From Blasia pusilla (lineage: Eukaryota): 64,000 nucleotides of DNA. Below the pieces are notes generated by a model. It saw only the letters and a list, made by a program, of their open reading frames with translations. It ran no database searches and was not told the origin of the DNA. Both the position numbers and the translations under genes were made by a program. Location: positions 62,001-126,000 of the forward strand of contig CM114271.1 of NCBI GenBank assembly GCA_050084515.1. The letters are read 5' to 3'. Shown here in pieces: positions 2,390 to 53,093 of the stretch. Every line of letters starts with the position of its first letter. The first letter of the stretch is position 1.

Positions 2390-3310
2390 ATTCGAGTTTT
2401 GGATCTCTTTGGAGGGATCAACAATGGGTTAGCTGTTGTTTTGCACGCTGGAGTGCGCGTGCAGCAATACGTGTATGTGGAGATTCATGATGTTGCGAGG
2501 CGCGCTTCACTTCACCATGTGGCATAGTTATGCCTCCGTTTTCCCGACTTGTTGTCTGCGTCCGCCATTTAGGGCTACCAAAGTTCCCTACCGAGGGACA
2601 TTTCATTGTTGGGGGCGCATAGATTTGGTCATTGCTGGTTGGCCGTGCTAGGGAAAATCGAGTGTTGGACGAGGTAGCGGGCTAGCTGACACTCGGTCCA
2701 TGTTATTTTGGGAGATGATGCGGATCTTGCAATATTTACAGGAGCATGAGCCTTGTTTTTCAGCATAAATTTTGGAGAATGTGCATTTCGATTGGGCGAT
2801 TCGAGGTCCCGGGTGGTGACGAGTGCACATCAGGTGCGCGCATGGACCGACCCGACAGTGTTGTTAGATACGGCGAGTATAGGTTCTAGAGCACACCACC
2901 CACATCTTTAGTGGACCAACTTGGAACCACATGAGGTGTTGCGGAGGGCTTATGCAAGAGTGGAGTGTCCCTCCGATTTTTTGGTGGATTCTATATTGAT
3001 CCAGCCGCCGATCACAAAAAAGTGAGGCATGATGATCGACCGCCGTTGATTGTGGTCAACAAGATTGGCATGCCACGAGCAGCCTTTCCCATATTGGTGA
3101 GTTTTCCCGCTTCCTATGCATTCAAGGAGGCCAGACCTAGCTTGGTTTGGGATGACCAGGTACAGAGGTTGGTGGAGCCCAACGCCGATTAGCGATAGCA
3201 AGTGATGGGATTCCCCACAGGAGTGACGCTAATATCGTCACTATCGGAGGCATCACGACGTTATGTCTTGGGTCAGGCGATGGATTTGAACTGCTTGACA
3301 TGGATTTTTA
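2390..3310 (+). pseudogene. DNMT3-like C5 cytosine methyltransferase domain within gypsy pol (disrupted)
   Basis: Manual translation gives IRVLDLFGGI (motif I, 2390-2419), YVYVEI (II), IDLVIAGWPC*G (IV, PC at 2643-2648), RSMLFWEMMRIL (V) and ILENV (VI, 2769-2783). It continues GSRAHHPHL*WTNL (VIII), VMGFP (IX) and RRYVLGQAMDL (X). Confidence 0.9.
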
Positions 3311-6120
3311 GCTTATGAGTAGGTGAGCAACCTTGTTTGAGGATGCGAAAAATCATAAAAGTTGTGTTGGTGAGCCCCATGCCTATCGAGACGGTTGAGG
3401 CAGTGGTTCGGGGCAAGGCCCCGAGGAGATCGACACACCAGGGATGATTGGGAGAGACACCCTTGGACTTCTTGGGATGTTTTGCAGATACGCCAGGAGA
3501 TGGTAGCCACAGCATTGAGCGTGGTTTAGGGTACTACAAATGGAGATCCGATTTTGCAGTTGGTTGCAAGGGAGCAGTTGAGTTTTGTTGTCCGAGACAG
3601 GGTTGCATAATAGCAACCACTAATATCCGCGCGGGAGAGTCTTACCGTAGTCACGATGGAGACTTGGGAGCCAAATATGGGCCCTAAGTGACAGGAGGAG
3701 AGTGGCATCGAAAACACCAGTTCCTTAGGAGTTATAGGAGATGTTTTGCATTTAGTATGCATGATTTGGGTACGCTGAAGGGTCCAGGGATCCGCATTGA
3801 GTTGTCGAGTGACACGCCGATCTTCCAACAACCCTATAGGCATAGTGACATGGAGAGGGCTCTAATTCAAAGTAGGAGCCATGACTTGGTTGGAGTAGGA
3901 CTAATGGAGATGTCGCATGGAGAGTATGCATCTGCCACTGTCATGCTCGCCAAGAAGCTACATCCTGGCAAGTGCAAGTTCTTCTATGACCAAATTGAAT
4001 ACTTGGGTCATGCGATATACCCAGGGGGCCTTGGTGTGCAACAGACAAAGGTAGAGGCTATTTCACGCATTCCACACCCTATAGATGTGAGTCAAGTTCG
4101 TGCATTCATGGGATTGGCGAACTTCTATCGATGATACATCAAGGGTTCCGGTTTGATTGCGAAGCCGCTAACCTTGATGATCAAGGTGGATTAGGAGGGG
4201 CACTGGGGGGATGAGCAAGAGAAAGGATATCTGATACTCAAGGACAGATTGATGTCTGCGCCCATATTTAGGAGACTGATCAGGGGGCGTCCTTTCAAAT
4301 TGCATACGGATTGGAGCATGTTGGGGCTTGGAGCCGTGCTCACCCAACATGACGATGATGGTAGAGAGCTTGTGGTGGCTTATGCTAGTCGCTCAAACAA
4401 CGCTGCAAAGTCTAGCTTGTATGAGGGTGAGTGCTTGGCTGCAATGTGGGCTATCGCACATTTCAGATATTATCTATTTGGCATTCCCTTTACCATCATT
4501 ATTGATCATCAGCCACTTAAGTGGTTGATGGAGTCCGACAAGCTTATAGGGAAGCTTGCAAGGTGGGCTCTTTTGTTGCAGGAGTATGACTTCCAGGTGG
4601 TGCATAGACCCAGGACGCTCAACTAGGATGTAGATGGTTTGAGCCGTAACCCATGCCCGAGTCAGCGAGATGCGAATGGAGCTCGTTGGCATAGTGAGAG
4701 TGATGAGGAGTTGGTGCCAGGATAGCTTGCGTCAACCTATTTGGGCTTGTTGGCTATGGAGAGCCAAATTGCTGAGACTTCGATGGCGAGGTTTGATGGA
4801 GAATCCTTAGATCTAGAGGCCGGTGAGGAGACGACATGTGGCCGAGACATTCGACGATGGAGTGGTCTTGGAGTATCTGTGTACTGGCAGCGTCGCGAGC
4901 ACAGTGGATGCGAGAGAGTGGGATCAGATCCTACAACAAGCCAGATGGTTCGGGTGGGAGGGCACACATGTGTTGCGAGTGTGGGAGGATGGTAGAATGT
5001 GTGTAGTGCCTCATCCTTTGTAGAGAGCACGTTTGGTGCGTCATGCCCATGAGAAGTTGGGTCATTTTGGAGTGAAGCGGACGTACAGCTTGCTCCAAAT
5101 TCAGTATTGGTGTCGAGGCATGCACACTAACGTTCAATAGTTTGTTGCCACATGCATGGTGTGTGATCGAGTTCAAGCATCATTCAATGCTTCGACTCTA
5201 GAATTGCATCCACTTCAGATCATGGGTTTAGGTTAGAGATGGAGTTTGGATTTTTCAAGACCTTTGCCTTTGACGGAGCGCCATAGTCGTTATATGGTAG
5301 TCATGGTCGAGCACTTCTTGGAGTGGATAGAGTTGGTTGTATTTCTTGACAAAGCAAGTGAGGGAGTAACGTATGCCTTCCTAGATCAAGTGTTGAGTCA
5401 TTTTGGCACACCACCTAAGGTGTTGACAGACTAGGGTACAGAGTTCCGTGGGGAGTTTCAGGCCTTGTGTGATCAGGCACTGATCGACCACCGCAATACT
5501 TCGCGAGATCATCCTGAGGCGGATGAACTAGCGGAGCGGGTTGTGTAGATGGTGAAGAGAGGACTACGCAAGTATGGTTTGCAGAGAGGTCACCTAGGAG
5601 ATTGGGACCTTCAGTTGCCATGGTTGGCGATGGGATATAGATTTTGCAGGCAGGCATCCTTAACGTCTTTCTCACTGTACTTGTTGCTTTATGGCCGAGA
5701 GCCAGATTTACCTATGGCCATTTGTCGAGATGTTGGTGAGGTGTTGAACGTTGATGACCCTGATGTATGGATGCGAGCATGTTCTTAGAGGGCTCAGTTG
5801 TTTTGGAGAGTGATGCCCTTAGCTTTTGAGAGCTTGGCCATTGCGCAATATCAAGATACGTTGAGGTATGCGACTATCCGGAGGATCATCATCGTGAGAT
5901 TACGTCTACTTTGCAAATGACGGCACCCACGACATTTGAGGTGACTCCAAGGCGCACCATCTTGAGAGTGCGTCAGGTTTTCCCATCCCGTGTTCTCTTA
6001 TTGGAGGGACATGATGGTATGGTTTGGAAGGACCATGTGCGTAATTTTTTGCCATGTCATCTTCGAAACATTGACGGTATAGTTGATCCAAGCTTAGCAG
6101 TAGTTCTTGTAGACTTGTGG

Positions 6121-6258
6121 TGTATGTTGTTTGGCTCCGCCCGTGGTGCAACCACTATGCTAGTCTATGATGGGTGTTCGAGAGTATGGCATATGGCATG
6201 TTTGACGCCACCTCTCACTAGGGTTCCTCAGGGACGATGGATGTGTCCCAGATGTATA
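6121..6258 (+). pseudogene. PHD finger at the C-terminus of gypsy pol
   Basis: CMLF..MLVYDGCSRVWHMACLTPPLTRVPQGRWMCPRC follows the C4HC3 PHD pattern. Two Cys positions read F and Y, each one base from TGT. Confidence 0.88.
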
Positions 6259-8479
6259 TAGAGTAGGTAGTTTTACATTCCGACTTGTGTCTATGACATG
6301 GATGGCAAGAAGGCGACTAACGATGGGGCCACATGAGCACCCGGCCTTCTTGCTCTTAGCGTTCGAGAGATGTATGTCATGGTAGGTACGGATAGATGGC
6401 TATCTGGAGTTAGAGGGACCTAACCACCAACTAGGGGGGCGATTGGGGATATTTTGGTACTTCTTGTCTCGCTTTTTGGATGCCATGAGTTAGCATGGGA
6501 TCGTGCGTACGTGTTTGTGTGTGTATTCGGTGACAACAATGTATGTTGTGTAGCGATGTGTATGCAGACGACACCATGCAAGAATTGAAAAAGTTTTTGA
6601 ATTGTAAAAAGCCAAGTTTTGCTGATGAGGTATCTCAGATATTTTCTTCCAAGAATCATTATTAAAAATTAGTAAGATGTCTATGCGAGAATTGAAAAAG
6701 TGTTTGAAGGTAATTATTTTCATTAATGGTGTTCTCCAAAAGATTCATCTACAAGTGATCTCTCCAAAATATTCATATGCAAGTCATATGGACGATTCAA
6801 ATTTCGAGGATCTTTCCTTTGGCCATCCATTAGAATCTTTGTGATTTAATTTAAAATTAAATTTGATTTGAATATTTTTATTTATTAGATTTTTGTGTTT
6901 TAATGATAGAGTTTCCAATGATAATGTATATAGAAGTTTTATTCATACTCTAGATCATGAGAAAATACATGAGTAGACAAGTAAATGTGGACTTTTTGTA
7001 AAGTGTGACCTGGAGACTTATTAATAATCCTAGCAAAACCCGACCAAGCACGGAATTGAAACAAACAGAAATCAAACATCTTTGCAAGACCTGCCATTAC
7101 TGTGCGAACACAGACTTTTTCCGTGTGCAACCAAGTTTGCTCATCACCTTTACATTAGACCAAAGCTAGAGATAACCTCCTTATGATGGCTTGGATCATT
7201 TGCAACCGATCCCCATGACGAACAATAGGAAACACTTGACAAAAATTACCACCAAATACTGGGTTTTCTAAAATGTTGGTTTCTCAACATCCACTTCTCT
7301 AAGCACCACTAATCTGATCGGCCCCCTTGTATGAGGAGAAGCTTAGATTAATGGTTCTGACTTAGACGTCGAAGGAGTCATAATAATATGACACAAAGTC
7401 CTAAAGGAACCTTTGCTCTTCAAAGCATTTAACCACCACTGGGCAGTTATTTTTCCACTAGTCTTTCAATGTGAGGTTATTTCACCCCGTGAATCGTACA
7501 AACGCCATGGGAAGTCATACAATTGTTGTTTAGACGCCCATGAAGCGTGACTCGCCATGGGCTTAGTTTACTTCTATCTTCGTCATGTCCTTGGCATCTA
7601 GCAATATGGAATAATGAGGCTTCACTCTTATAAGCGTTTCACAATCAGTTGGTGGTTATTCCCCTCCTCTTTTTGGGAGAAAGGCTAGTGAAGTTAGCCC
7701 ATTATCCATAAGTCAACAAGAGCATAGAATTTCACTTGCCAGCCGGCCTACATTCCTTCTCCTCCTTTGGGAGTGAGGTGAGGCTACTAAGGTAATAAAA
7801 GGAAACAAATGCCTACTATGTACTCCATTTTAGACGATGCAAGACTAGCTAGGATGGTTGGTGGCTTAAATCGTGTCCCCTAGGCCCATATATGCATTGA
7901 ATTGTAATACCAGAAGGACTTTCAGGCAGCTTAAAAGAAATTCTATTCTATATTGCAATTATTTGGGTTGGCAAGACAACACGTTTATCCATGAATATTG
8001 AGAACATAAAATCTGAAGTCCTTTCCAAAATTTTACTCTAGGATAACTCCACTTTGATCAACTACCAAACCACCACTACTATTTTCTTTCCCATAGCCGC
8101 CGTGACTAACCGCCACTGGAGCAACATAGGTATTGGCCAAATAAGAAAAATACTCCACCCAATGATCACCACTATTCTCCGACCTCCTATTCTCATGCAA
8201 ATAAAGGCTGCTTCTATTTCCTACCTTCACCCCTAGACTTGATTGCTGGGTTCTAATACAATTGTGTACAACATTTCTTTTTGCCAACTGATCACCACCA
8301 TTATACGCCATATGATCCACACTTTTATTTGCCAACTCCATCATTTTCCTTTGTTGCTCACTCATAGGAGAAGTATATACACCATTGACATCCACTATAT
8401 CACCGCTATTATCCGCAAGATTGATAGTTCTTTGCACTACTTGGGGGCTATGTTTATGGATGTGAGATCTTCTCCTCAT

Positions 8480-13320: not shown

Positions 13321-13365
13321 TTTATAGAATCCGGAACTTGGTGGTTACCATACGAGAGGAATATT

Positions 13366-13524
13366 GTGAACCAAAGTTGGGCTCTTATCCTAAACTGCAT
13401 TCTTTGTTCTTATCCAGGGGTGAACCATAGTTGGGCTCTTATCCTAAACTGCATTCTCTGTTCTTATCCAGGGGTGAACCATAGTTGAGCTTTCATCCTA
13501 AACTGCACTCCCTGTTCTTATCCA
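13366..13524. repeat. 54-bp tandem repeat, ~3 copies
   Basis: TGAACCA..GTTGGGCTCTTATCCTAAACTGCA..GTTCTTATCCAGGGG starts at 13367, 13421 and 13475. Confidence 0.92.
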
Positions 13525-13868
13525 ATGTGCTACTTCTTACGATATCAATATCCAATTACAAGAAAAAATGGAATCATCTATTCTACTACAATGAAAGAAA
13601 GTTTCTGGCTGCATTAGGGGCGAAGTCTCTGAGGGGGGCCTCTCAAGAAATTTCTTGCGCCCGGAAATCTCTACGGCCTTGCATCCGGAAACCTCCCCTC
13701 ACAATTTATAAATTTCATCCAACAACATCTCATCTCCCAACTCTTTTACGTTCAACTCTTTTACCTCCTACTAGGCGTGGTAGTAGTTTACGTTTCTTCC
13801 TTGTTTTTCATTCCTAATGGGAAAATTTGGCGCCTAAATACATACTCGTGGGTGGGCACTAAAAGACA

Positions 13869-15239: not shown

Positions 15240-15479
15240 TATAAACTGCTTTTCCTCCCAAACGTTTAATCCTATTTCAACCCCTAGCGCGGCGCCCAAT
15301 GCTTGCTTCTCCGACCAGCGTCCGGGAGAATAGGGTTTAAGGTTGACGTAACGTTCAATTTCTAAAAGCCGGCTAGATAGCCAACTGGGATTAGAAAACT
15401 TCAACATAAATTCCGGGAGAAACTAGCAAGACCTGTCTCCGACTGCTTGAGGCAAGACCCTCCCCCTAGACCCTATCTC

Positions 15480-27229: not shown

Positions 27230-27678
27230 AATAGCGACCTTGCTGCCCAAGGAGGACAAGAGTGGGACTCTCAAGATGGTGCGCCTTGCACTCACATTGA
27301 ACGTCGTGGGTACCGTGTGTTGCAAGTAGACATAGTCTCCTAATGAAACCTCCAAATAGTAGGTGGATAACCACCTCCTGAATAGTTGCATTCTTCAAAG
27401 TATCTCGATGTTGTGCAATCACCAAGTTCTCAAACGCCATGGGCATCACTCTCAAAATAACTCAGCCCTCGAGAATATACTCGCATCCATAAATCAGGTC
27501 ATCAAGGTTCAACACCTCACCAACATCTCTACTGAATGGCCTTAAAGTAAATTTGGCTCGACCATAAAAAAGCAAGTCACGGTGAGAAAGTCGCTAGGAT
27601 GCTGCATGTTGAATCTGATCCCATCGCCAACCACGGCAATCAAGGTCCCAATCTCTAGGTGACTTCTCTGCAAGCCAT
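27230..27678 (-). mobile_element. Integrase C-terminal fragment related to the DNMT-gypsy family
   Basis: The reverse complement TTGCAGAGAAGTCACCTAGAGATTGGGACCTT..TGGTTGGCGATGGGAT matches 5579-5640. ORF text RVMPMAFENLVIAQHRDTL and TTFNVSARRTILRV parallels 5807-5970. Confidence 0.8.
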
Positions 27679-32549: not shown

Positions 32550-34569
32550 GGAGAGTTAGATATGTTCTCCAGCGTACATTTTGGAGAACGTGTCTTTGTT
32601 GGGAGACACTCGTGCACGTGTGATGACGAGTGTGCATGAAGTGAGGTCTTGGTTAGGACATGTTGTGTTGCTAGATGGAGCGAGAGTTGGATCACGTGCC
32701 CATCGTGCACGACTGTGGTGGACGAACTTGATACCATCAGAGGTACTGAGTCAAGCATATGATAAAGTCCAGAGAGCACCACATCTCACAATGGATACTA
32801 TTTTGGGCTCACGGCGTTGATCTTAGGTGGTGACGCCGGATGATAGACCATTGTTGGCCATGGCCAATAGGGTGGGGGAGTTGAGGGCAGCCTTACCTAC
32901 GTTGGTGAGCTTCCCAACATCCCATGCCTTTTGTCAGGGAGGGCCAGGCATGATTTGGGATGAGGTGACCGGAGCATTGGAGGAGCCTATAGCACATGAG
33001 CGCGAGCGCGCCATGGGGTTTGCTACAAGTACTACGGCGGTGCCATGTATCACAGAGGCATCTCGGAGACAAGTGTTGGGGCAGGCAATGGACCTCAACT
33101 GTCTCACATGGATAGCCATCCTAGGTATGGCTGAGCAGAGACGGATGCGAGTGTCATCCATGTCGTCACGTCCACGAGTTGGACCATTGTCTACAGCGTC
33201 TGTAGAGGCATTGGCTGGGGACGGACGAGGAGAGATAGGCACCCATGGACTTCTTGGGACGTCGTTCGAGCGGAGAGTGCAAAGGCGTCCAAAGTAGCAC
33301 ATGTTCATTTTTTGGATGTAGAGCATGGTGTAGGAGGTCAGAGTGGAGTGGTTGTTGCGGAGATGGCTAGGGTTGCTACATAGCAACCAAAGCCAGAGGT
33401 TGCGTCCTCTCCAAGTGAGATCACAATGGAGACTTGGGAGCATGTGATAGGTCTCAAGTTGATAGGAGGAGAGCGACGGCGAGTTCATAGCTTTCTGAGA
33501 GGGCATGTTAGTTGTTTTGCCTTCAGTATGAGAGACTTGGGTACGCTGAAGGGTCCTAGGATACGGATTGAGCTGGCTAGTGATACGCTGATCTTTCCTC
33601 GACCCTACAGGTATTCTCATATGGAGCGAACCTTGATTCAGAGCAGGATTCAAGACTTGTTGGAGGCAGGCCTTGTGGAGTTATCACATGGGGAGTATGC
33701 ATCTGCCATAGTCATGCCGGCGAAGAAGGATATGTATGGCAATTGGACGGATAGGCAGATGTGTGGAGATTACCGTCCTATCAACCAACAGACGAGGTCA
33801 GATTGGTACGTCATGCCTACTCCTGAGGAGATCTTTGATGGGGTAGGGCATGCAAAGATCTTCAGTACTTTAGATCTCCGTGTTGGCTATCATACGCTTC
33901 CTATCAGGTTGGAGGACCGGGAGAAGACAACATTCTGGGGGATAGATTGGTTTGGGAGAGATTGCTTGTATTAGTGGCGGTTCTTACCGTTTGGGTTGAA
34001 GAATGCACCTGTAGAGTTTTAGAGAGTGATGGATAGGATTCTCACTGGCTTGGATTTTGAACGATGTTACATAGATGATATTCTTATCTTCACTTCCATG
34101 GTTGAGGAGCATGAGTGACACTTGGAGCAGGTGCTTCGGCGATTGTAGTTAGATGGACTGAAGTTACATCCAGGCAAGTGCAGATTCTTTCAAGAGCACA
34201 TTAAGTACTTGGGACACACCATATACTTGAGTGGGTAAGGCGTTCAGCAGACGAAGGTGGAGGCTATTACGCAGATTCCACGCCCTACAAATGTGAGTCA
34301 AGTCCGAGCAACATTGCCAAGGTGAAGTACAACTCCTACGCGGGAGAGTGCTTGGCTGCAGTGTGGGCCGTGGCACATTTCAAGTGCTATTTATTCAGAA
34401 ATCCTTTCACACTTATCAGTGATCATCAGCCGTTGAGGTGGTTGATGCAGTTCGACAAGCTTACAGGAAAGATTGCCATGTGGGCTCTATTACCACAGCA
34501 GTATGAGTTTAAGGTGGTTCATAGGTTAGGTTGGCTGAACCAAGATGCGGATGGGTTGAGTCGTAACCC
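32550..34569 (+). mobile_element. Diverged DNMT-gypsy relative: methyltransferase C-terminal half - RT - partial RNase H
   Basis: YILENVSL, VGSRAHRARLWWTNL, ERERAMGF and RRQVLGQAMDL. Then RT PYRYS, MCGDYRPIN, FSTLDLRVGYH, LPFGLKNAP, CYIDDILIF. Then RNase H ECLAAVWAV..SDHQPLRWL..DADGLSRNP. Confidence 0.92.
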
Positions 34570-34583
34570 TAAACCCTAAACCC
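34565..34583 (-). repeat. Short interstitial telomeric repeat (TTTAGGG, ~2.7 units) at a rearrangement junction
   Basis: The + strand reads AACCC-TAAACCC-TAAACCC exactly between the gypsy RNase H end and the inverted MULE segment. Confidence 0.75.
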
Positions 34584-37500
34584 ACCTTTCCCTTCTTTCT
34601 CCTTCCCCTTACTTGCCTTTGTGTTCCATACTCCCCCGTTTCTTGCTCCCTCTACCTCCACTCCCTCCTCTCTCATTGCTCCACTTATCCTTGCCTTGCA
34701 TTCCATCATGGATTATAAAGTGTGGGTCCCACCTCTTGGAACCCATGTTTGTCCTAAGGAAGGACTTGTCCATTTTTTTGCAACCATCATTGATAATATT
34801 TGTCGAGTCCTCGATATTGTAACTAGCCTCCAATACTGTAAATAGTTGCAAGCTCCGATGAACACGTTGTAGAAGAATGCCGCCAAGTGATAATATTTGT
34901 CTTTTCCGCGATATTGTAAATAGCTGTCACCTTCACCAATGAATGCTTTTAGGATGCCGCAAGGTGAAATTAGTCTTCAGGTCCCCCATGCTGTAAAAAG
35001 CCGCTATCTCCATTGAACATAATGAGGCAGAATGCCGCCAAGTGATAAAAGACGTTGGGTCCTTGAGACTCTAAAAATCCGCCAACTCCACCTGACACAC
35101 TACGGCAGAATGTTGCCAAGTGACAATAGCCAACAAACCCCCGATATAGTAAATAGCCGACTCCGACAAACGGTGGAAAAATTTGAGAGACTTCTTAAGC
35201 AACTTTGGAGGGAAACTTCCTAGCTAATACAACCCCCTGCAAAGATTCATTCCTTGTGAGGCTTTCATACCGTGCCACATAAGATGCCGTACAGTACAGA
35301 GGGAGCACACTGGATAAGAATTGAGAGTGTAGTTTAGGGTGAAAGCACCGTTGTGGTTCAAAGGTTAATCTCTAAATTTTACTTACACATTTAATTTACT
35401 TGCTGCACCTAATCATTCAAAAATCTCAATCATTCTCCTATTGTTCATGCGAGCATGTTCATTAGATTTGATGCTTTAAGAATGGACGGTAGGGAGTCGG
35501 CTTGAGTGACATTGGGCACATCGTCCAAAGATAATGCTTGAGACTTGAGAAAACACCATTTTCCTCTTGATGAGAAAAGCCTATTCATAGGTGATGATGA
35601 CATTGAGAAGAAGTATGCAGTGTATGGATGACGGCCTTTGGTGTCAGAGTCCAAAGCCGTGGTTGACTTGTGGAAAGTTTCCATATTCGAAAATAAGCCT
35701 AATCTTGAAGGATAAAGTCTGGAAGAAGGTATGGACTCTTTAGTTACTCCAAAGTTGTGAGTGTGTGAATGTTGGAAAGGTAGGAAGGGTAGCTTGCGTG
35801 TATTTTAAGCGCCGGGTAAGAAGGAATCCTCGGCAAGATAATCACCAAGGCTGATATTTTGTAATGCAATCAGCGGATTCCAAAAGTTGGAATGCAAGTA
35901 TAGTCTTTTCTTTTGGGGTTGTGGAACTTTTGAGATGCTCATACGCTTGTGGACCCACTCCTTACAAACGTTGCTCACATGTTGTGCAGCCCAAAGACAA
36001 TCTGATTGGATGACTTTGAGTTTGCACTTGATTGTTGAATCAGATGCTCTCTTAGTGTTAGAGAAAACAATTGTGTGCGGACAAAGAAATGCCATCGGCT
36101 TCAGACTTTGAGATATGGAGCTAAGATAAGAGGGAAAGGGTTTCTTGAGAGAATCAAGGGAAAAGCATTTAGTGAAAATGAGCATGCGGATCAAAGATGA
36201 TGGTGTGTACCGGTGTGATGAAGTGAAATGCATGACGGGAGAGGATGCATATTCAAAGAAAAAATGCCTTGTACATGCAAGAGTTGATAGTCTAAGAGAC
36301 GATGGGGTAGTGGTGGAGAAAAGCCGCCAAAATATTCCTTCAAGACACATTGTTAGCGAAAATTCTCTCTCAACTAGCTATAGCAACTTTCATGGGTGCT
36401 ACATATGGTAGGTGTAAATATTTAAGTCCATTGGGATTGGGGCCTACCTTGGAGAGCCAATCTGCAACGACGACTAAAGATTGCAAGCTTTTATCAGAGT
36501 AAATTTTGTCTCTCATTGCCTTGTTGCCCAAGAGCATGGATACCCACTTGACGGCTAATCATAGACTCCCTCTAGTAGCCGTTCTCCGCTAGCAAAGCAT
36601 GGACATTCCAGCATCAAGTGTTTGGGGGCAACAAGAAAGAAATGAGGACCCTACAATTCCTAGGGATTATATTGGTACACACGCACCATGGCATCCACAA
36701 CATTCCAAGAGGCCACACCGCCTTGTCCTTAGAAGTTCCTTCATTGAGGTATTGCCATCCTCAAAGGATTTTGCTGAAAGAAGGAGGAAGCGTGGAGAAA
36801 TATCAAAGGATAAAGAGGTATCCACCATGACTTGAAATGGTGCACGCGGTGAATTTTCAAGGTACCTTTGTATGGAAAATGAGAAGGGACGACCCAAGAT
36901 CAAGAAGATTTGTGAGTAGAGGGTAAGATGTCACCGACACAAGAAGTCTAGTGCCTACTAAATAACGGTGTGTAACCTAAAGCACACATGTCTAGGCCAT
37001 ATTCACACATGGACACGCCCGACCCATAAAGCCAAGTGGCTTTCTATGGTATTAACATAGAGGGTTGTGAATCAACCAAGTATTCTTGTGGGCAAGCTTA
37101 TAAATGTCCATGCCCAGAATAACTGAAGGCACACTTGGTACTTCCTAGCTTGGAGATGCTAAGAGAACTTTCGGCATTGGATAAATAGGGTCGAATGTGC
37201 TAGTTTCCGCATGGTTCTAGCCTTCATTCACGTTGTGAACAAAGTTGACCCTCTTGCAACCACTACATGGGATGTTTGGGATTTGGAATGTAGGTTTAAG
37301 CGATTCCTCCCTGAGCCTGCGGGCTCAAGGATGAATGGGATGTTTGGGATTTGGAATGGGTCACGCCTGCCCACCTCAAGACCGTGCCTTCCTCCCCCAA
37401 AGCCCACACTTGCCCGCCCTAGCCTGCGCCCAATCAGCTCTAAGCCCACACCTTCCCGCGGTAGCCTGCGCCTGCCCACCTTGAGCCCGCATCCAATCAG

Positions 37501-39824
37501 GCTCGAGCCCCGGCCTTCTCACCCTAGCCCATGTTGAGCCCAACCTATGGACCACGCAATGGGTGTGGGCTTCAATAGCCCGGGTCTAGGTGGTGGGCTC
37601 GGGTGCAGGCCCGGGTGGGGCATGTCGAAGGATATATCCGGACTTGTCTGTTTCCGTTCAACCTTGCTTAGATGCATGCCATTCAAAAAATGGGAAATAT
37701 CCAATACAAATTTTCATAGCTTCCATGTTGGAAAGGAATGCCAACACCATCATTCTAGCGTATGGGATCTTTCTCGTGAGAGCAACAAGGATTGGGAATG
37801 GTTTGCTCACATTTGAAGATTGCAATCCCTAGCCTTGATGATCCAAATATAGTTATGATTTCAGATAAAAAAAGGGATTGCTACATGTTGTTAATATTAT
37901 TTTTTCCAATAACATATATAGCATGTGTGCTTAACATCTACGAGCAAATGTGAAATCAAGATATGGAAAAGTGGCAAAGGAGTATTTTATCGCATGCCTC
38001 TATGCAAGGTCAAGGGAAAAGTAAGTATTTCCTATCATTGACTAACTACTAATCCTAGGTGTTGGATGGTGATTATTTAATCTTTTGAACATCATTTACT
38101 AGTGTCTAATTTGAGTCATGGTGCCTAATTTCAGTCATGACTCCTAATCTTAGTCTTGGCGGCTAATCTCAATGTTGCCTGCTAAACTCAGTGTTGGTGG
38201 TTTTTGGCAAAGGTTTTAGGATTCGTCTTCATTGTGTATAGGTTTGAATTTTGGTTGAATGAGATGGAAAGGCATCATATACAGAAGATTTGTGACCTTA
38301 TTTCTTATATCCGAGAGAAATAGAACCACAAAAGTATGCTAGGTATGGACTCTCCTTACCTCGATATGGCAAAGTTAGTTCAAATCTAGTAGAGGTAATA
38401 AATTATGCCATCAAGCCAATTACAGACATTCCTCCTTTGGGCATTCCATGCGGGTTTTGGAACTATATGATGAAAACTTAGACCGAGAGGAAGTTAGAAG
38501 CATACCACCCTCATAAATACAACTTCTCGGTAACCACCTATGCCCTACTTCAATATCGATATAAGGAGAGCATATGTCAAGGGTTTGAAGTGATTTCCTC
38601 TGATGAAGCGCTTTTGTCATCTCAACAACAAATATGCATGAATCCATGTTCAGTTGAGTCCTAAGTGTCAATGTTCCTACCTTGAGTTTCAAGATAAATG
38701 TTGGCCTTGTACTCATGTAATGGCTTGAGATATGTTCACTGGAATGGATTCATAATAGCTATTTGATTGATTTGGAACAATTACTTCATCAAGCGCATCT
38801 ATAGTAGTAGTATACCAAGGGTAAAGTGTGATGACCTTATCCCATCCTGTTGCAACTCGATGAGGACATCATCGTGTTGTACGTATTCCTAGAAATGGAC
38901 CTAGAAGGTCGCATAACGACTAAAGAAGTTCAAGGAAAAATATCCTACCCAATACATGACTATGCAACAAGTTAGAAATAAATATGGATGGCGTTGCTTC
39001 ACGTGGAGACATACCTAAAGGGAGAGGATATGTGAGAATTGGTCGGCGGTGTTCCCATTGCTTGAGAGAAGGGCACAACCAAAATATTTGTGAGGATCTA
39101 AAATCAGATATAGCGTTGGAAGACCCATGAGGAGAAGATCTCACATCCATAGACATAGCCCCAAGTAGTGCAAAGAACTATCAATCTTGCGGATAATAGC
39201 GGTGATATAGGGGATGTCAATGGTGTATATACTTCTCCTGTGAGTGAGCAACAAAGGAAAATGATGGATTTGGCAAATAAAAGTGTGGATCATATGGCGT
39301 ATAATGGTGTTGATTAGTTGGCAAAAAGAAATGTTGTACACAATTGTATTAGAACCCAGCAATCAAGTCTAGGGGTGAAGGTAGAAATAAAGCGACCTTT
39401 ATTTGCATGAGAATAGGAGGTAGGAGAATAGTGGTGATCATTGGGTGGAGTATTTTTCTTATTTGGCCAATACCAATGTTGCTCCAGTGGCGGTTAATCA
39501 TGGCGGCTATGGGAAAGAAAATAGTAGTGGTGGTTTGGTAGTTGATCAAAGTGGAGTTATCCTAGAGTAAAATTTTGGAAAGGACTTCAGATTTTTTGTT
39601 CTTAATATTCATGGATAAACGTGTTGTCTTGCCAACCCAAATAATTGCAATATAGAATAGAATTTCTTTTAAGCTGCCTGAAAGTCCTTCTGGTATTACA
39701 ATTCAATGCATATATGGGCCTAGGGGACACGATTTAAGCCACCAACCATCCTAGCTAGTCATGCATCATCTAAAATGGAGTACCTAGTAGGCATTTGTTT
39801 CCTTTTATTACCTTAGTAGCCTCA
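34581..39824 (+). repeat. Inverted copy of 7779-13033 (MULE segment), more diverged than the direct duplicate
   Basis: Reverse-complement identity throughout, with scattered substitutions. Confidence 0.95.
36770..39130 (+). pseudogene. MULE/MuDR-type transposase, decayed (inverted copy)
   Basis: CE*RVRCHRHKK..ITVCNLKHTC, YFLAWRC, LDACHSKNGKY, KDWEWF, MISDKKKGL, SWIM CQCS..PCTHVMA and CSHCLREGHNQNIC. Confidence 0.87.
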
Positions 39825-46845: not shown

Positions 46846-48325
46846 ATCCCCTTCTGTTATTACTCGAATGTTTGATTCAAAATATTTCTTGACGCCATTG
46901 TAAATTGCAAAGTTATGCATGCTTTGCAACAAACAATGCACAATTTGGAGATGCGAGCAAAAATTTATGGTCAATCTTGCAAAACTTCCATTGCTAGGCA
47001 TTTTTTAGGGTTAAATTGTTCAAACCCTAAACCAGCCGCCGTCGTCATACTCACCATCAACGGTCAACCATCATCATCGATGGTGAACCATCACCATCAA
47101 CGTTCAACTTTCACCATCAACGGTCCGCCGTCACCATCAACATCAATGGTCCACCGTCCACCGTCGGCCGCTGTCGCCGCCTACGCCGCCGAGAGCGTTC
47201 GCCGTTGTCCACCCTTTGGTTGCCATTTTTGCCATTACGAAGTGGAGGGTCTTCCACGAGGACCGTTGATTCTTTCACTTGCGCCGCCATCACGTACTTT
47301 GTTTTGGCCGCCACCGTCATTGTAGTTTCGTCATCAAGCAGTGATGGCAGATGACCTCGGGTTATGGTTTTTTAGTTTTCATTTCATGCTGCTATGCTGT
47401 AATTGGTAGCCGCTTAACAAAAATCGAGTACCATACCGTGATGCCCGTAGCGCGAATCGGGCGCCGATTGGCGTGCCCGTGCCGCGGGTGGCACCCGCAT
47501 CCGTCTTGACGCGGAGCGCTCCTTCACTAAGGATCGAGCGTGTGAATTGCTGATTGAGGAGGGTGCGGGCAAGTGCCGCACTCCATTACGAGTTCCATGT
47601 CATTAAGAGCTATTCCGTGCCGTACTAGACCGCAGACTGCACCGTACATCGAGGAGGTTTGAGGGGCGTCAATACGAGAGGAGTCCAACTTTCCGATTGG
47701 AGAGTTGTCTTCACAACCAAAGTTGGGGTCGAGATTTGCGGTTGTCGAGGAGCGACATCGATATTATTGTCAAGTTACCTATTCGGTCTCTTGCCGCACG
47801 TGTGAGTGATTTTTGGGTATTGGGAAGTTATTTGGGATATTGTTTCGTGCGATCTTTGAGAGCATCAATGATGTATGGATTTGGGGACATAGAGCGTGTG
47901 TGGGATGTCGAGTTAAGGATGGTTTGTCGATGAGATGGTAGATGAGTTGATTTGCCGGACGCGCGCTTGTTGTCGTACAACACACGTCTTCGAGAGAGTG
48001 TAGATTGGGTGCCGCATGTTTAGTTTTAGTGATTGAGGGATGGATCCTGATCAGAGTCGATGGGTCCTGATCAGAGTTTATGGAGAGTTGGTGATGTTGT
48101 TAGTATGCAGGCACGGAGGGCGATGGGAGAAGTGAGTGCGACGATTGCTGATGCTCAAGAGGGGCATGTGTCGAGCACGTTGTTGGGGCGCCACCATTGA
48201 GTACCAAGCTCCTTTATTTTCTGCTTCCGATGTTATGACGCGTTGGGAGGTACGCCCGCCCAGTTTTTTAGCCGGGCGCTACACTATGTGAGCGTGGAGT
48301 TGGAGTTCTTGCATCACGTTCAAAG

Positions 48326-51300
48326 GTGATTGTAGAGGAGGTGCCCTTGGAGCGGATGCTCGGGCGGTCCACGTCAGATTCATGGCAGGCTCCGGCTGCT
48401 AGGATGGCAGAGATGCCCGCTAGACCGCGATAAGCGTGCCATGGCTTCTCCTAGTGTTGTGTTGCTTGATAACCAGGGAGAGGTCTTCCAATTGGTGAGT
48501 CACGTAGGAAGAGCTTTTAGTCCGCAGCGTGTCTTATTGGATTCAGGAGCGCAACCCTTGATGTTGGGGAATGTGTCATTGAGAATTGGGATTGCGAGAG
48601 CCGATGTGGAGCGTTGTCCATTCCGGATAAAGACATCATTGGATGGAGCTAGTACCACACGATATATCATCCGACAAGAGGTCATGGTGAGGATTCGGCT
48701 CGAGACATCCCTGAGATGAGTCGGTGGTGCGAGCCAAGGCAATCTTCGATGTAGAGTCCCTCGACGTCTTGGTTGGTAGAGCGATGTCATACCCGATGGG
48801 GTTTTCCGTGGATTACTTGGGAGGAGTCGGCATCTTACGGACCAGGATGGCGATCCGCGTGATAGGCACCTTAGCTCATTACCCGTTCGATTCATAGGTG
48901 CAATGATCGAGCGATGGCCGGGAGATGGCGACCTTAGCAGCATTTAGCAGTGCCATCACTTGGACTAGTGATTTGATTGAGGGACATGTCCATGGAGAGG
49001 ATACTCCCGTTCCTAAAATTTTTATGGAGAGGAGTGTCATGGTAGCCGCATTAGTCCATGGAGGAGAGGTGTTGCTTTGGGGCTCAAGCTGGAGGAGCCG
49101 TTGCTTAGCGGTGAGCATGTGCACCGTGTGGAGCAAGACGTTGCACTAGAGTGTGACAAGTTAGAGGAACCCTAGGTAGACAGATAGATCCCTTTGGATA
49201 CCACCCCGATTGTGTGGTGCATCCCAAAGGAGGGTATTCGAGTTTTGGATCTCTTTGGAGGGATCAACAATGGGTTAGCTGTTGTTTTGCATTTGGAGTG
49301 AGGCAAAGACAATACGTGTATGTGGAGATTCATGATGTTGCGAGGCGCGCTTCACTTCACCATGTGGCATAGTTATGCCTCCGTTTTCCCGACTTGTTGT
49401 CTGCGTCCGCCATTTAGGGCTACCAAAGTTCCCTACCGAGGGACATTTCATTGTTGGGGGCGCATAGATTTGGTCATTGCTGGTTGGCCGTGCTAGGGAA
49501 AATCGAGTGTTGGACGAGGTAGCGGGCTAGCTGACACTCGGTCCATGTTATTTTGGGAGATGATGCGGATCTTGCAATATTTACAGGAGCATGAGCCTTG
49601 TTCTTCAGCATAAATTTTGGAGAATGTGCATTTCGATTGGGCGATTCGAGGTCCCGGGTGGTGACGAGTGCACATCAGGTGCGCGCATGGACCGACCCGA
49701 CAGTGTTGTTAGATACGGCGAGTATAGGTTCTAGAGCACACCACCCACATCTTTAGTGGACCAACTTGGAACCACATGAGGTGTTGCGGAGGGCTTATGC
49801 AAGAGTGGAGTGTCCCTCCGATTTTTTGGTGGATTCTATATTGGATCCAGGCCGTCGATCACAGGCAGTGAGGCATGATGATCGACCGCCGTTGATTGTG
49901 GTCAACAAGATTGGCATGCCACGAGCAGCCTTTCCCATATTGGTGAGTTTTCCCGCTTCCTATGCATTCAAGGAGGCCAGACCTAGCTTGGTTTGGGATG
50001 ACCAGGTACAGAGGTTGGTGGAGCCCAACGCCGATTAGCGATAGCAAGTGATGGGATTCCCCACAGGAGTGACGCTAATATCGTCACTATCGGAGGCATC
50101 ACGACGTTATGTCTTGGGTCAGGCGATGGATTTGAACTGCTTGACATGGATTTTTAGCTTATGAGTAGGTGAGCAACCTTGTTTGAGGATGCGAAAAATC
50201 ATAAAAGTTGTGTTGGTGAGCCCCATGCCTATCGAGACGGTTGAGGCAGTGGTTCGGGGCAAGGCCGAGGAGATCGACACACCGGGGATGATTGGGAGAG
50301 ACACCCTTGGACTTCTTGGGATGTTTTGCGTGATCGCCAGAGATGGTAGCCCAAAGATTGAGCGTGGTTTAGGGTACTACAAATGGAGATCCGATTTTGC
50401 GGTTGGTTGCAAGGGAGCAGTTGAGTTTTGTTGTCGAGACAGGGTTGCATAATAGCAACCACTAATATCCGCGGGGAGAGTCTACCGTAGTCACGATGGA
50501 GACTTGGGAGCCAAATATGGGCCCTAAGTGACAGGAGGAGAGTGGCATCGAAAACACCAGTTCCTTAGGAGTTATAGGAGATGTTTTGCATTTAGTATGC
50601 ATGATTTGGGTACTGTTGAAGGGTCAGGGATCCGCATTGAGTTGTCAGTGACACGCCGATCTTCCAACAACCCTATAGGCATAGTGACATGGAGAGGGCT
50701 CTAATTCAAAGTAGGAGCCATGACTTGGTTGAGTAGGACTAATGGAGATGTCGCATGGAGAGTATGCATCACACCTTTGTCATGCTCGCCAAGAAGCTAC
50801 ATCCAGGCAAGTGCAAGTTCTTCTATGACCAAATTGAATACTTGGGTCATGCGATATACCCAGGGGGCCTTGGTGTGCAACAGACAAAGGTAGAGGCTAT
50901 TTCACGCATTCCACACCCTATAGATGTGAGTCAAGTTCGTGCATTCATGGGATTGGCGAACTTCTATCGATGATACATCAAGGGTTCCGGTTTGATTGCG
51001 AAGCCGCTAACCTTGATGATCAAGGTGGATTAGGAGGGCCTTTGGGGGATGAGCAAGAGAAAGGATATCGATACTCAGGATGATTGATGTCTGCGCCCAT
51101 ATTTAGGAGACTGATCAGGGGGCGTCCTTTCAAATTGCATACAGATTGGAGCATGTTGGGGCTTGGAGCCATGCTCACCCAACATGACGATGATGGAAGA
51201 GAGCTTGTGGTGGCTTATGCTAGTCGCTCAAACAACGCTGCAAAGTCTAGCTTGTATGAGGGTGAGTGCTTGGCTGCAATGTGGGCTATCGCACATTTCA

Positions 51301-53093
51301 GATATTATCTATTTGGCATTCCCTTTACCATCATTATTGATCATCAGCCACTTAAGTGGTTGATGGAGTCCGACAAGCTTATAGGGAAGCTTGCAAGGTG
51401 GGCTCTTTTGTTGCAGGAGTATGACTTCCAGGTGGTGCATAGACCCAGGACGCTCAACTAGGATGTAGATGGTTTGAGCCGTAACCCATGCCCGAGTCAG
51501 CGAGATGCGAATGGAGCTCGTTGGCATAGTGAGAGTGATGAGGAGTTGGTGCCAGGATAGCTTGCGTCAACCTATTTGGGCTTGTTGGCTATGGAGAGCC
51601 AAATTGCTGAGACTTCGATGGCGAGGTTTGATGGAGAATCCTTAGATCTAGAGGCCGGTGAGGAGACGACATGTGGCCGAGACATTCGACGATGGAGTGG
51701 TCTTGGAGTATCTGTGTACTGGCAGCGTCGCGAGCACAGTGGATGCGAGAGAGTGGGATCAGATCCTACAACAAGCCAGATGGTTCGGGTGGGAGGGCAC
51801 ACATGTGTTGCGAGTGTGGGAGGATGGTAGAATGTGTGTAGTGCCTCATCCTTTGTAGAGAGCACGTTTGGTGCGTCATGCCCATGAGAAGTTGGGTCAT
51901 TTTGGAGTGAAGCGGACGTACAGCTTGCTCCAAATTCAGTATTGGTGTCGAGGCATGCACACTAACGTTCAATAGTTTGTTGCCACATGCATGGTGTGTG
52001 ATCGAGTTCAAGCATCATTCAATGCTTCGACTCTAGAATTGCATCCACTTCACATCATGGGTTTAGGTTAGAGATGGAGTTTGGATTTTTCAAGACCTTT
52101 GCCTTTGACGGAGCGCCATAGTCGTTATATGGTAGTCATGGTCGAGCACTTCTTGGAGTGGATAGAGTTGGTTGTATTTCTTGACAAAGCAAGTGAGGGA
52201 GTAACGTATGCCTTCCTAGATCAAGTGTTGAGTCATTTTGGCACACCACCTAAGGTGTTGACAGACTAGGGTACAGAGTTCCGTGGGGAGTTTCAGGCCT
52301 TGTGTGATCAGGCACTGATCGACCACAGGAATACTTCGCGAGATCATCCTGAGGCGGATGAACTAGCGGAGCGGGTTGTGTAGATGGTGAAGAGAGGACT
52401 ACGCAAGTATGGTTTGCAGAGAGGTCACCTAGGAGATTGGGACCTTCAGTTGCCATGGTTGGCGATGGGATATAGATTTTGCAGGCAGGCATCCTTAACG
52501 TCTTTCTCACTGTACTTGTTGCTTTATGGCCGAGAGCCAGATTTACCTATGGCCATTTGTCGAGATGTTGGTGAGGTGTTGAACGTTGATGACCCTGATG
52601 TATGGATGCGAGCATGTTCTTAGAGGGCTCAGTTGTTTTGGAGAGTGATGCCCTTAGCTTTTGAGAGCTTGGCCATTGCGCAATATCAAGATACGTTGAG
52701 GTATGCGACTATCCGGAGGATCATCAGGGAGATTACGTCTACTTGCAACAGACGGCACCCACGACATTTGAGGTGACTCCAGGGCGCACCATCTTGAGAG
52801 TGCGTCAGGTTTTCCCATCCCGTGTTCTCTTATTGGAGGGACATGATGGTATGGTTTGGAAGGACCATGTGCGTAATTTTTTGCCATGTCATCTTCGAAA
52901 CATTGACGGTATAGTTGATCCAAGCTTAGCAGTAGTTCTTGTAGACTTGTGGTGTATGTTGTTTGGCTCCGCCCGTGGTGCAACCACTATGCTAGTCTAT
53001 GATGGGTGTTCGAGAGTATGGCATATGGCATGTTTGACGCCACCTCTCACTAGGGTTCCTCAGGGACGATGGATGTGTCCCAGATGTATATAG
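48326..53093 (+). mobile_element. Duplicate of the protease-DNMT-RT-RH-INT-PHD gypsy pol (DNMT ~49236-50156, PHD ~52953-53090)
   Basis: Same motifs, same stops and same RT deletion as 1469-6261. Confidence 0.93.

What the first reader, a model, noticed from the sequence alone, without database searches (positions are those of the whole stretch)
32550..34569. An independent, diverged element has the same DNMT-RT fusion, so it is a family trait
Seen: a second element with many nucleotide differences but conserved protein motifs (ENV, RAHRARLWWTNL, PTLVSFP, ERERAMGF, RRQVLGQAMDLNCLTWI) has the methyltransferase in the same position before RT. Its motif VIII is better preserved than in copy 1. 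A related integrase fragment sits at 27230-27678. Inference: protein conservation despite DNA divergence suggests purifying selection on the methyltransferase while the family was active, rather than a passive capture.
Basis: partly seen in the sequence, partly recalled or inferred. Interest (0 to 1): 0.8.

Follow-up and report, generated by a model that had tools for sequence, protein, structure and literature searches.

The report
Dead fragment of methyltransferase-carrying Gypsy retrotransposon
This stretch is a broken, truncated copy of a plant-type jumping gene whose family carries its own DNA-methylating enzyme next to its reverse transcriptase, a kind of element already described in a green alga and found here in a liverwort-like genome.

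Summary
Observation confirmed. Window 32553-34569 (+) is a 2-kb dead fragment of a Ty3/Gypsy retrotransposon. It holds the C-terminal half of a DNMT3-like C5 cytosine methyltransferase (motifs VI-X only), a linker, RT (YIDD kept) and part of RNase H. It matches Marchantia polyproteins in the same order (E 5e-80; 61-66% identity per domain).

It has 7 in-frame stops, 2 frame changes and a ~78-aa deletion. Its 5' end is cut before motif VI. Its 3' end is joined to an inverted segmental repeat through a telomere-type repeat.

It is independent of the copy at 1313-6261 (duplicated at 48263-53093): synonymous sites are saturated (pS 0.74).

Purifying selection on the DNMT frame is supported: pN/pS 0.38 against 0.70-1.33 out of frame. 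It is weaker than on RT (0.28).

The DNMT is a family trait. 26 of 29 nearest RT relatives carry it, and 42 of 47 related metagenome loci have RT just downstream.

New here: a sister lineage in chlorophyte algae has the DNMT after RNase H instead (RT-RH-DNMT-INT).

The kind is known (KnitGypsy-Dnmt3, de Mendoza 2018). I found no paper describing liverwort members. Verdict: new member of a known kind, moderate interest.

The parts
32553..33126 (+). C-terminal half of a DNMT3-like C5 cytosine methyltransferase domain (motifs VI ENV, VIII RAHRARLWW, IX ERERAMGF, X GQAMD). The 5' end is cut just before motif VI. In-frame stops at 32818-32820 (TGA) and 32824-32826 (TAG).
   Evidence: Translation. 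tblastn P0013 512-694, 65% identity. Homologues at E 4.6e-80. Nucleotide alignment shows homology to copy 1/3 starting near 32553, after a CT-rich tract.
33127..33434 (+). Poorly conserved linker between DNMT and RT, with a frame change between 33297 and 33384.
   Evidence: ORF frames. Linker pN/pS 0.71, not different from the out-of-frame controls.
33435..34316 (+). Reverse transcriptase, with the YIDD catalytic motif kept and 5 in-frame stops.
   Evidence: tblastn P0013 696-950, 61% identity over 294 columns. 69% aa identity to copy 1 RT remnants.
34298..34569 (+). C-terminal part of the RNase H domain, in another frame. About 78 aa of the RT-RNase H connection are missing. The element ends here, without integrase.
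   Evidence: Pfam RT_RNaseH E 3.4e-15 on 34205-34579. tblastn P0013 1029-1119, 66%.
34567..34583 (+). CCCTAAACCCTAAACCC, a telomere-type repeat of about 2.4 units, at the joint between the cut element and the inverted segmental repeat.
   Evidence: Unique in the window; 0 of 100 shuffles give a match. Alignment of the three repeat ends. The reading as the plant telomere unit is from recall.
34581..39824 (-). Inverted copy of window 7779-13033 (96.4%); also matches 59837-54607. It bounds the fragment on the 3' side.
   Evidence: Self-megablast.
1313..6261 (+). Copy 1, a fuller but degenerate element. It holds protease (DSGA in ORF 1415-2329), a whole DNMT (motif I at ~2400, motif IV GWPC-stop at ~2640, motifs VI-X to 3306), RT remnants 3688-4110 (RT core deleted), RNase H 4195-4710, integrase 5171-5590, and a PHD finger at ~6148-6255.
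   Evidence: tblastn of Marchantia and Sphagnum proteins. Three-frame reading. Pfam RNase H 2e-31, rve 2e-3, PHD 4.9e-8.
48263..53093 (+). Copy 3: the same insertion as copy 1, duplicated with its flanks (1-17194 = 46879-64000, 98.3%).
27261..27654 (-). Frame-shifted fragment like the region after the integrase core of copy 1 (5599-5975).
   Evidence: tblastn of copy 1 translations, E 3e-12, 47% over 73 aa.

Best explanation
Window 32553-34569 is a non-functional, doubly truncated remnant of a Ty3/Gypsy LTR retrotransposon. In this family the pol polyprotein reads protease - DNMT3-like C5 cytosine methyltransferase - RT - RNase H - integrase, with a PHD finger at the end in many members. It comes from a different, long-diverged sublineage than the copy at 1313-6261, so it is an independent insertion.

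Shown here:
- The DNMT belongs to the element lineage.
- It is kept in the same place in liverwort, Sphagnum and Closterium relatives.
- It evolved under purifying selection while the lineage was active, more weakly than RT.
- It has the DNMT3 fold and unpermuted motif order.

Inferred, not shown: in intact members the domain is made as part of Gag-Pol and methylates DNA de novo. The target is most likely the element's own new cDNA or insertion, as proposed and partly demonstrated for SymbioDIRS-Dnmt3 by de Mendoza et al. 2018. The PHD finger would steer integration by reading histone tails.

This fragment can do none of that. It lacks the SAM-binding motif I and the catalytic cysteine of motif IV, and it is full of stops.
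For: Collinear match to Marchantia polyproteins.

Family profile against PDB sequences gives 51 hits at E<=0.01. All of the top 29 are DNMT3A/3B/3C (7e-19 to 1e-13). Then come DRM (5e-10 to 3e-7), HaeIII/HhaI (5e-6 and weaker) and DNMT2 (2e-3 and weaker). No DNMT1 or CMT appears.

AlphaFold model of an intact member (P0005): mean pLDDT 81, 289 residues at 90 or more. All the hits listed are DNMT3A/B/C; catalytic-domain chains give TM 0.77-0.83 by target length.

Motif order I-IV-VI-VIII-IX-X is visible in alignment A1.

Selection.

Family census:
- 26 of 29 RT-clade members carry the DNMT.
- Of 47 metagenome loci with at least 1500 bp after the DNMT, 42 have RT within 900 bp. 23 of 80 loci show the full order PR-DNMT-RT-RH-INT.

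LTRs of ~340 bp (90.7-90.8% alike) flank a ~9.1-kb relative in L066 and L065.

Death of the fragment.
Against: No LTRs or target-site duplications were found around any window copy. The LTR-element reading therefore rests on relatives.

Pfam PF00145 does not reach the fragment's DNMT half: 0 families at E<=10. The single-sequence PDB search is only marginal (best E 0.36).

dS between the window copies is saturated, so omega is not measurable there.

The related metagenome copies are nearly all degenerate too. The DNMT lies in one open frame in 12 of 80, and DNMT+RT+RH lie in one frame in 0 of 80. They come from a few related samples, so the pairs are not independent.

In 16 of 39 type-A and 82 of 152 type-B domains, motif IV reads ECQ rather than PCQ. 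Catalytic competence across the wider family is therefore not assured.

No methylation activity or target was tested.
Confidence: 0.9

Rival explanations
1. Copy 2 is not an independent insertion. It is an old segmental duplicate of the same insertion as copy 1 that has since diverged in place.
For: The window is full of segmental duplications and inversions. Copy 2 abuts one of them.
Against: Synonymous sites are saturated while non-synonymous differences are held at 0.29, and the wrong-frame controls give 0.70-1.33. In-place neutral decay would give a ratio near 1.

The two copies carry different internal deletions. Copy 1/3 lacks the RT core; copy 2 lacks the RT-RH connection.

They are not supported sisters in the DNMT tree.
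Confidence: 0.03
2. The DNMT half is a host DNMT3 pseudogene, or a piece of another element, that lies next to an RT by chance (nested insertion or rearrangement). On this view it is not part of the element.
For: The region is a repeat graveyard with rearrangement joints. Pfam does not call the DNMT half.
Against: The same order and spacing occur within single annotated proteins of Marchantia (P0013), in Closterium proteins and in metagenome polyproteins. They also occur in 42 of 47 related DNA loci and in copy 1/3 of this window.
Confidence: 0.02
3. The DNMT domain is a neutral passenger, a passive capture carried along without a function for the element.
For: It is less conserved than RT: dN 0.36 against 0.20. 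aa identity to copy 1/3 is 48-55% against 65-69% for RT and RNase H. Near-identical metagenome pairs give dN/dS 0.80. Many family members have ECQ in place of PCQ.
Against: The in-frame pN/pS of 0.38 is well below the wrong-frame controls. Deep pairs give 0.20.

The domain is retained in both sister lineages across chlorophytes and streptophytes, in 135 of the 139 rows of the RT clade. Most of these rows were found through their DNMT; the RT-based count is 26 of 29.

RxR of motif VIII is kept in 33 of 39 type-A and 149 of 152 type-B domains.
Confidence: 0.05

Closest known systems
KnitGypsy-Dnmt3 of Klebsormidium nitens (de Mendoza et al. 2018, Nat Commun 9:1341, PMC5890265; I read section 9 and passages)
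   Same: A DNMT3-type domain with unrearranged motifs lies inside the Pol polyprotein of a Gypsy retrotransposon of a streptophyte. The paper reports purifying selection on the domain (Ka/Ks < 0.2). The copies are multi-copy and intron-less.
   Different: The host here is liverwort-like: the best named relatives are Marchantia, Calypogeia and Sphagnum. The paper describes a DIRS-like repeat arrangement, whereas a relative here (L066/L065) has plain ~340-bp direct repeats.

I could not see the domain order of KnitGypsy-Dnmt3 (Fig. 4c, supplements). No Klebsormidium sequence turned up in my searches. Common descent was therefore not tested.
SymbioDIRS-Dnmt3 and SymbioLINE-Dnmt of Symbiodinium (same paper)
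   Same: They are retrotransposons that carry a C5 DNMT. The paper reports two domain orders within SymbioDIRS-Dnmt3, which parallels the two orders found here. It also shows de novo CG methylation by the DIRS-borne DNMT3 in yeast.
   Different: They belong to other element classes (DIRS with a tyrosine recombinase, and LINE) and to another host supergroup.
Chlorophyte Gypsy polyproteins RT-RH-DNMT-INT-PHD (Haematococcus lacustris, Monoraphidium neglectum, Chromochloris zofingiensis and many metagenome contigs)
   Same: They form the sister clade on both the DNMT tree and the RT-RH tree. DNMT identity to P0013 is 47-49% for the more distant relatives listed. A PHD finger follows the integrase, as in copy 1.
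   Different: The DNMT lies after RNase H and before integrase, not between protease and RT. Motif VI is mostly ENT and motif IV mostly ECQ.
EpiLTRs (bioRxiv 10.64898/2026.05.21.726589; passages read)
   Same: They are LTR elements with an added cytosine DNMT and a chromatin-reader domain.
   Different: The preprint places that DNMT as sister to DNMT4, appended at the 3' end of pol, together with an adenine methyltransferase and a chromodomain. It calls this acquisition distinct from the streptophyte Gypsy-DNMT3.

Membership tests
Ty3/Gypsy (Metaviridae) LTR retrotransposon | RT with YxDD, followed by a Gypsy-type RNase H | tested here: met
   YIDD in 33435-34316. Pfam RT_RNaseH E 3.4e-15 on 34205-34579. 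The RT-RH tree places the family among Gypsy polyproteins.
Ty3/Gypsy (Metaviridae) LTR retrotransposon | Integrase after RNase H (order PR-RT-RH-INT) | tested here: inconclusive
   Absent from the fragment, which ends in RNase H. Present in copy 1 (rve E 2e-3; tblastn 66% to the Sphagnum protein's integrase) and in 23 of 80 related loci with the full order.
Ty3/Gypsy (Metaviridae) LTR retrotransposon | Long terminal direct repeats flanking the element | tested here: not met
   No direct repeat of 40 nt or more flanks the copies in the window. Met only in a relative: ~340-bp repeats, 90.7-90.8% alike, 8.75 kb apart in L066/L065.
C5 cytosine DNA methyltransferase, DNMT3 type | Motifs I, IV (catalytic Cys), VI, VIII, IX, X in unpermuted order | tested here: inconclusive
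   Family and copy 1: all are present in order. Fragment 32553-33126: only VI-X; motifs I and IV are missing.
C5 cytosine DNA methyltransferase, DNMT3 type | Closer to DNMT3 than to DNMT1, CMT, DRM, DNMT2 or bacterial enzymes | tested here: met
   Profile against PDB: DNMT3A/B/C at 7e-19 to 1e-13, DRM 5e-10 and weaker, bacterial 5e-6 and weaker, DNMT2 2e-3 and weaker, no DNMT1 or CMT at E<=0.01. Foldseek: all listed hits are DNMT3A/B/C; catalytic-domain chains TM 0.77-0.83. No tree with plant host DNMT3 could be built.
C5 cytosine DNA methyltransferase, DNMT3 type | Methylates DNA | not testable with these tools
   Needs expression and bisulfite or EM-seq.
KnitGypsy-Dnmt3 lineage | DNMT3-like domain within the Gypsy Pol ORF | tested here: met
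KnitGypsy-Dnmt3 lineage | Common descent with the K. nitens elements (same capture event) | not tested
   No K. nitens sequence was returned. The figure and supplements of PMC5890265 were not available.

The most novel reading that the evidence does not exclude
The fragment belongs to one ancient clade of Gypsy elements that spans the green lineage and is largely undescribed. The clade captured a DNMT3-like domain once, often alongside a PHD finger on the integrase. The domain later moved within pol. It lies after RNase H in chlorophytes (Haematococcus, Monoraphidium, Chromochloris). It lies between protease and RT in streptophytes (Closterium, liverworts, Sphagnum).

If so, a self-encoded de novo methyltransferase has been kept by a retrotransposon lineage for roughly the age of green plants. 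Marchantia, whose copies form a tight young clade (branch lengths up to 0.05, one row 0.19), would be a tractable model to test what it does.
Probability: 0.45. Interest if true: 0.6.

Novelty: new member of a known kind. Interest (0 to 1): 0.4.

Why it matters
Cytosine methylation is the host's main way of silencing transposons, so a transposon that brings its own methyltransferase is a paradox. Only a few cases have been described: Symbiodinium, Klebsormidium and, lately, EpiLTRs.

This window adds liverwort-type members. Following them outward shows three things. The domain is a stable, selected part of a large clade: 434 cluster representatives at E<=1e-30. It is present in both chlorophytes and streptophytes. 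It occupies two alternative positions in pol.

That makes the question 'what does a transposon gain from methylating DNA?' testable in a genetic model, Marchantia. The fragment itself is dead and has no function.

Tried and rejected
- Pfam on the single ORF pieces and on the read-through DNMT half: no PF00145 hit. The half is too diverged for the model, and the family was recognised only through relatives.
Public proteins and metagenome loci were used instead.
- LTR search around the window copies: nothing.
- Cluster look-up for taxon names of 10 representatives: no organism names.
- YN00 in Biopython failed on saturated data. I used my own Nei-Gojobori p-distances with bootstrap and wrong-frame controls.
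- CpG observed/expected: elements 0.61-0.71 against the window's 0.64. No distinctive depletion.
- Sequencing runs: no RNA holder listed.
- Laid reads. The DNA run of the same species label covers the stretch patchily, and 237 of 325 reads lie only partly on it. The three RNA runs gave 2, 3 and 4 reads, all only partly on it. At 33784 RNA reads of one run (X18, 3 reads) share a loose end with DNA reads, so those likely come from other copies. This gives no verdict on expression of this fragment or on the assembly joints.
- Searching for intact ORFs among the 80 metagenome loci, for a clean dN/dS: the DNMT is open in 12 of 80, and DNMT+RT+RH in one frame in 0 of 80. Only mixed neutral and selected estimates were possible.
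- Single against double capture of the DNMT: not resolvable, because no host plant DNMT3 or DRM sequences could be brought into the tree.
Full report
**What is at the coordinates.** The window is eukaryotic and rich in repeats. A self-comparison shows that 1-17194 is repeated at 46879-64000 (98.3%). It also shows that 7779-13033 recurs inverted at 39824-34581 (96.4%).

The finding's stretch, 32550-34569, is different. blastn gives only 63-75% nucleotide identity to those copies, in patches.

tblastn of a Marchantia polymorpha protein (P0013) lies on it in order. By Pfam, P0013 holds DNA_methylase, RVT_1 and RT_RNaseH. Residues 512-694 fall on 32566-33114, 696-950 on 33435-34316, and 1029-1119 on 34298-34567, at 65, 61 and 66% identity. 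So the methyltransferase half stands directly before RT.

**State of the fragment.** The fragment is dead.
- It has 2 stops in the DNMT part and 5 in RT.
- It has a frame change in the linker and another before RNase H.
- About 78 residues are missing between RT and RNase H.
- RT still reads YIDD.
- On the 5' side, homology begins near 32553, just before motif VI (ENV). Upstream is a CT-rich tract that aligns to nothing in copy 1/3. No frame upstream matches the family. Motif I (SAM binding) and motif IV (catalytic cysteine) are therefore absent.
- On the 3' side the element stops inside RNase H at about 34569. It is joined to the inverted segmental repeat through CCCTAAACCCTAAACCC (34567-34583). 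That sequence is unique in the window, and 0 of 100 shuffles give a match.

It lies on the minus strand (27261-27654) and is frame-shifted.

**Is the DNMT call sound?**
- Pfam does not see the half-domain.
- A single-sequence search of PDB sequences is marginal. Of 16 hits at E<=10, 15 are DNMT3A/B and one is a thioredoxin reductase. The best E is 0.36.
- The relatives settle it. The read-through finds 24 proteins at E<=1e-3, the best at 4.6e-80. Thirteen are from Marchantia polymorpha, one from Calypogeia fissa, one from Sphagnum fallax, and nine are unnamed metagenome or assembly proteins.
- An alignment of six of these with the fragment shows motifs I (LFGGI), IV (GWPCQ), VI (ENV), VIII (RAHRPRLWWTNL), IX (ERERAMGF) and X (GQAMD) in the unpermuted order.
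- Its profile hits 51 PDB sequences at E<=0.01. DNMT3A/3C/3B take the first 29 places (7e-19 to 1e-13). Then come DRM (5e-10 to 3e-7), M.HaeIII and M.HhaI, and DNMT2. DNMT1 and CMT do not appear.
- An AlphaFold model of an intact member has mean pLDDT 81. Every hit listed is a DNMT3A/B/C structure, and the catalytic-domain chains give TM 0.77-0.83 by target length.

**Independence and selection.** I aligned copy 2 with copy 1 and copy 3 codon by codon, using ungapped tblastn blocks.
- In the DNMT segment (to 33123), pN is 0.287 and pS is 0.742, which is saturated. The ratio is 0.38, with a bootstrap range of 0.29-0.47 over the two comparisons.
- The same nucleotide alignment read one or two bases out of frame gives 0.70 and 1.32-1.33.
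- RT gives pN 0.174, pS 0.616 and a ratio of 0.28 (0.20-0.40), with out-of-frame values of 1.28 and 1.38.
- The linker gives 0.71, no different from its out-of-frame controls.

So the DNMT frame was under constraint, more weakly than RT (dN 0.36 against 0.20). The two copies separated long before they died. In a DNMT tree both sit in an 18-row clade (99*) with the liverwort and Sphagnum sequences. They are separate long branches, outside the tight Marchantia polymorpha clade.

For a less saturated view I fetched 80 related DNA loci from metagenome contigs.
- Nearly all are degenerate. The DNMT is open in 12 of 80, and DNMT+RT+RH lie in one frame in 0 of 80.
- Pairwise dN/dS for the DNMT falls from 0.80 (dS<0.1) to 0.55-0.56 (dS 0.1-0.6) and to 0.20 (dS>1).
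- For RT-RH the values are 0.46, 0.44 and 0.34.
- This is the pattern expected from neutral decay after insertion laid over purifying selection in the active lineage.
- The loci come from a few related samples. At least L065 and L066 are the same locus, so the pairs are not independent.

**Family trait?**
- Among the 47 loci with at least 1500 bp after the DNMT, 42 have RT within 900 bp. Of the other five, three still have RT downstream (one at 1.2 kb, two with nested second elements), one has lost RT, and one shows none.
- 23 of 80 loci show the full order PR-DNMT-RT-RH-INT.
- A profile search of 1.84 billion cluster representatives found 7812 proteins at E<=1e-3 and 434 at E<=1e-30.
- Among the best 150, my domain mapping gave two architectures. 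17 have the DNMT between protease and RT (PR-DNMT 10, DNMT-RT 5, full or nearly full 2). 78 have it after RNase H or directly before integrase (RT-RH-DNMT-INT 37, plus partial forms). 55 hold the DNMT alone.
- A search with a member of the second type returned named proteins of Haematococcus lacustris, Monoraphidium neglectum and Chromochloris zofingiensis, and more weakly Closterium. Most carried a PHD finger after the integrase.
- Copy 1 in the window also ends in a PHD finger (Pfam 4.9e-8). So do some first-type proteins (P0331, P0332, P0338).
- On the DNMT tree the two architectures are the two sides of one branch. The FastTree run had 193 rows and support 96*. The IQ-TREE quick run had 49 rows and support 99*.
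- On an RT-RH tree with generic Gypsy elements as outgroup, all 135 DNMT-bearing rows fall in one clade of 139 (support 100). Inside it are a type-A clade (23 rows, 87) and a type-B clade (115 rows, 99). The four rows without a detected DNMT are three incomplete proteins and one complete one, P0378.
- Most rows were found through their DNMT, so I counted the RT-based search alone. Of the 120 proteins listed, 110 had a usable RT-RH stretch. 29 lie in the clade and 26 of these carry the DNMT. Of the 81 outside, 80 have none adjacent.

The DNMT is thus a trait of the lineage. Its position before RT is a trait of the streptophyte branch.

**Mechanism.**
Shown:
- the domain order;
- the DNMT3 fold;
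- the retention of the catalytic motifs in the bryophyte clade;
- selection on the DNMT frame;
- LTR-like ~340-bp repeats around a ~9.1-kb relative.

Not assured: across the wider family motif IV is often ECQ rather than PCQ. That is 16 of 39 type-A and 82 of 152 type-B domains.

Inferred from de Mendoza et al. 2018 (PMC5890265; abstract, section 9 and passages read): the enzyme is made within Gag-Pol and methylates the element's own cDNA or new insertion de novo. I give this about 0.45. The PHD finger would guide integration by reading histone H3 tails.

None of this applies to 32553-34569, which cannot encode an enzyme.

**Comparison with what is known.** DNMT3 domains inside the Pol of a Gypsy element are described for Klebsormidium nitens (KnitGypsy-Dnmt3, Ka/Ks<0.2).
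- A 2025 paper (PMC12344493, passages) treats retrotransposon-embedded DNMT3 in streptophytes as reported.
- A 2026 preprint (10.64898/2026.05.21.726589, passages) does the same.

My full-text searches for liverwort or Marchantia Gypsy-DNMT elements, and for the chlorophyte RT-RH-DNMT-INT-PHD form, found no description. Supplements and subscription journals were not searchable.

Whether the elements here descend from the same capture as KnitGypsy-Dnmt3 could not be tested.

**Verdict.** The thing itself is a dead fragment of a known kind of element in a new host group. The wider pattern deserves a proper study: one green-lineage clade with two DNMT positions. It rests on quick trees and on unnamed metagenome proteins.

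Noticed in passing
window 34567-34583: A telomere-type repeat (CCCTAAA, about 2.4 units) sits exactly at the joint between the cut retrotransposon and an inverted segmental repeat. It looks like a footprint of break repair or healing. It is unique in the window (0 of 100 shuffles).
   Followed up: partly
window 1-17194 / 46879-64000; 7779-13033 / 39824-34581 / 54607-59837: A 17-kb direct segmental duplication (98.3%) spaced 46.9 kb apart, and a 5.2-kb segment present three times (two direct, one inverted; 96-98%). Between the two 17-kb copies there are 118 substitutions, 69 of them transitions and 39 in a CpG context.
   Followed up: partly
window 5830-6261 (and 52665-53093): The integrase region of copy 1/3 ends in a PHD finger (Pfam PF00628, E 4.9e-8) where chromoviruses have a chromodomain. 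The same PHD occurs in most chlorophyte relatives and in some streptophyte ones.
   Followed up: partly
proteins P0026-P0269: Closely related DNMT domains sit in two places in Gypsy pol: PR-DNMT-RT-RH-INT and RT-RH-DNMT-INT. The two forms are reciprocally monophyletic on the DNMT and RT trees.
   Followed up: yes
alignment of 191 family DNMT domains: Motif IV reads GWECQ rather than the canonical PCQ in 82 of 152 type-B and 16 of 39 type-A domains. The catalytic Cys is kept but the preceding Pro is replaced by Glu.
   Followed up: no
protein P0022 (Sphagnum fallax) in the DNMT tree: A moss protein sits as the nearest sister (branch length 0.18) to the tight Marchantia polymorpha clade. It is closer than the other liverwort-like copies. 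Possible explanations are horizontal transfer, contamination or slow evolution.
   Followed up: no
window 3955-3957 and 50733-50794: Copy 1/3 lacks about 105 residues of the RT core (P0013 793-899), the part that copy 2 retains. Copy 2 in turn lacks the RT-RNase H connection that copy 1 retains.
   Followed up: yes
window 15571-17784 and 20420-21863 (+): Two LINE-like reverse transcriptase ORF sets, one with a 340-aa open frame. They are other retroelements in the same repeat-rich region.
   Followed up: no
P0013 against window 33735-33850: The Marchantia gene model P0013 lacks 39 RT residues that the window fragment encodes. This is probably an intron wrongly called inside a retrotransposon ORF.
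   Followed up: no
window 34569, laid reads: 33 DNA reads of a run with the same species label match up to 34569. They then continue with sequence resembling copy 1 after 4652. This suggests untruncated copies of this sublineage elsewhere in that genome.
   Followed up: partly
protein P0230: A 1974-aa Gypsy polyprotein of this eukaryotic family is labelled as a Minisyncoccia bacterium MAG protein in NCBI. It is likely a mis-binned eukaryotic contig.
   Followed up: no
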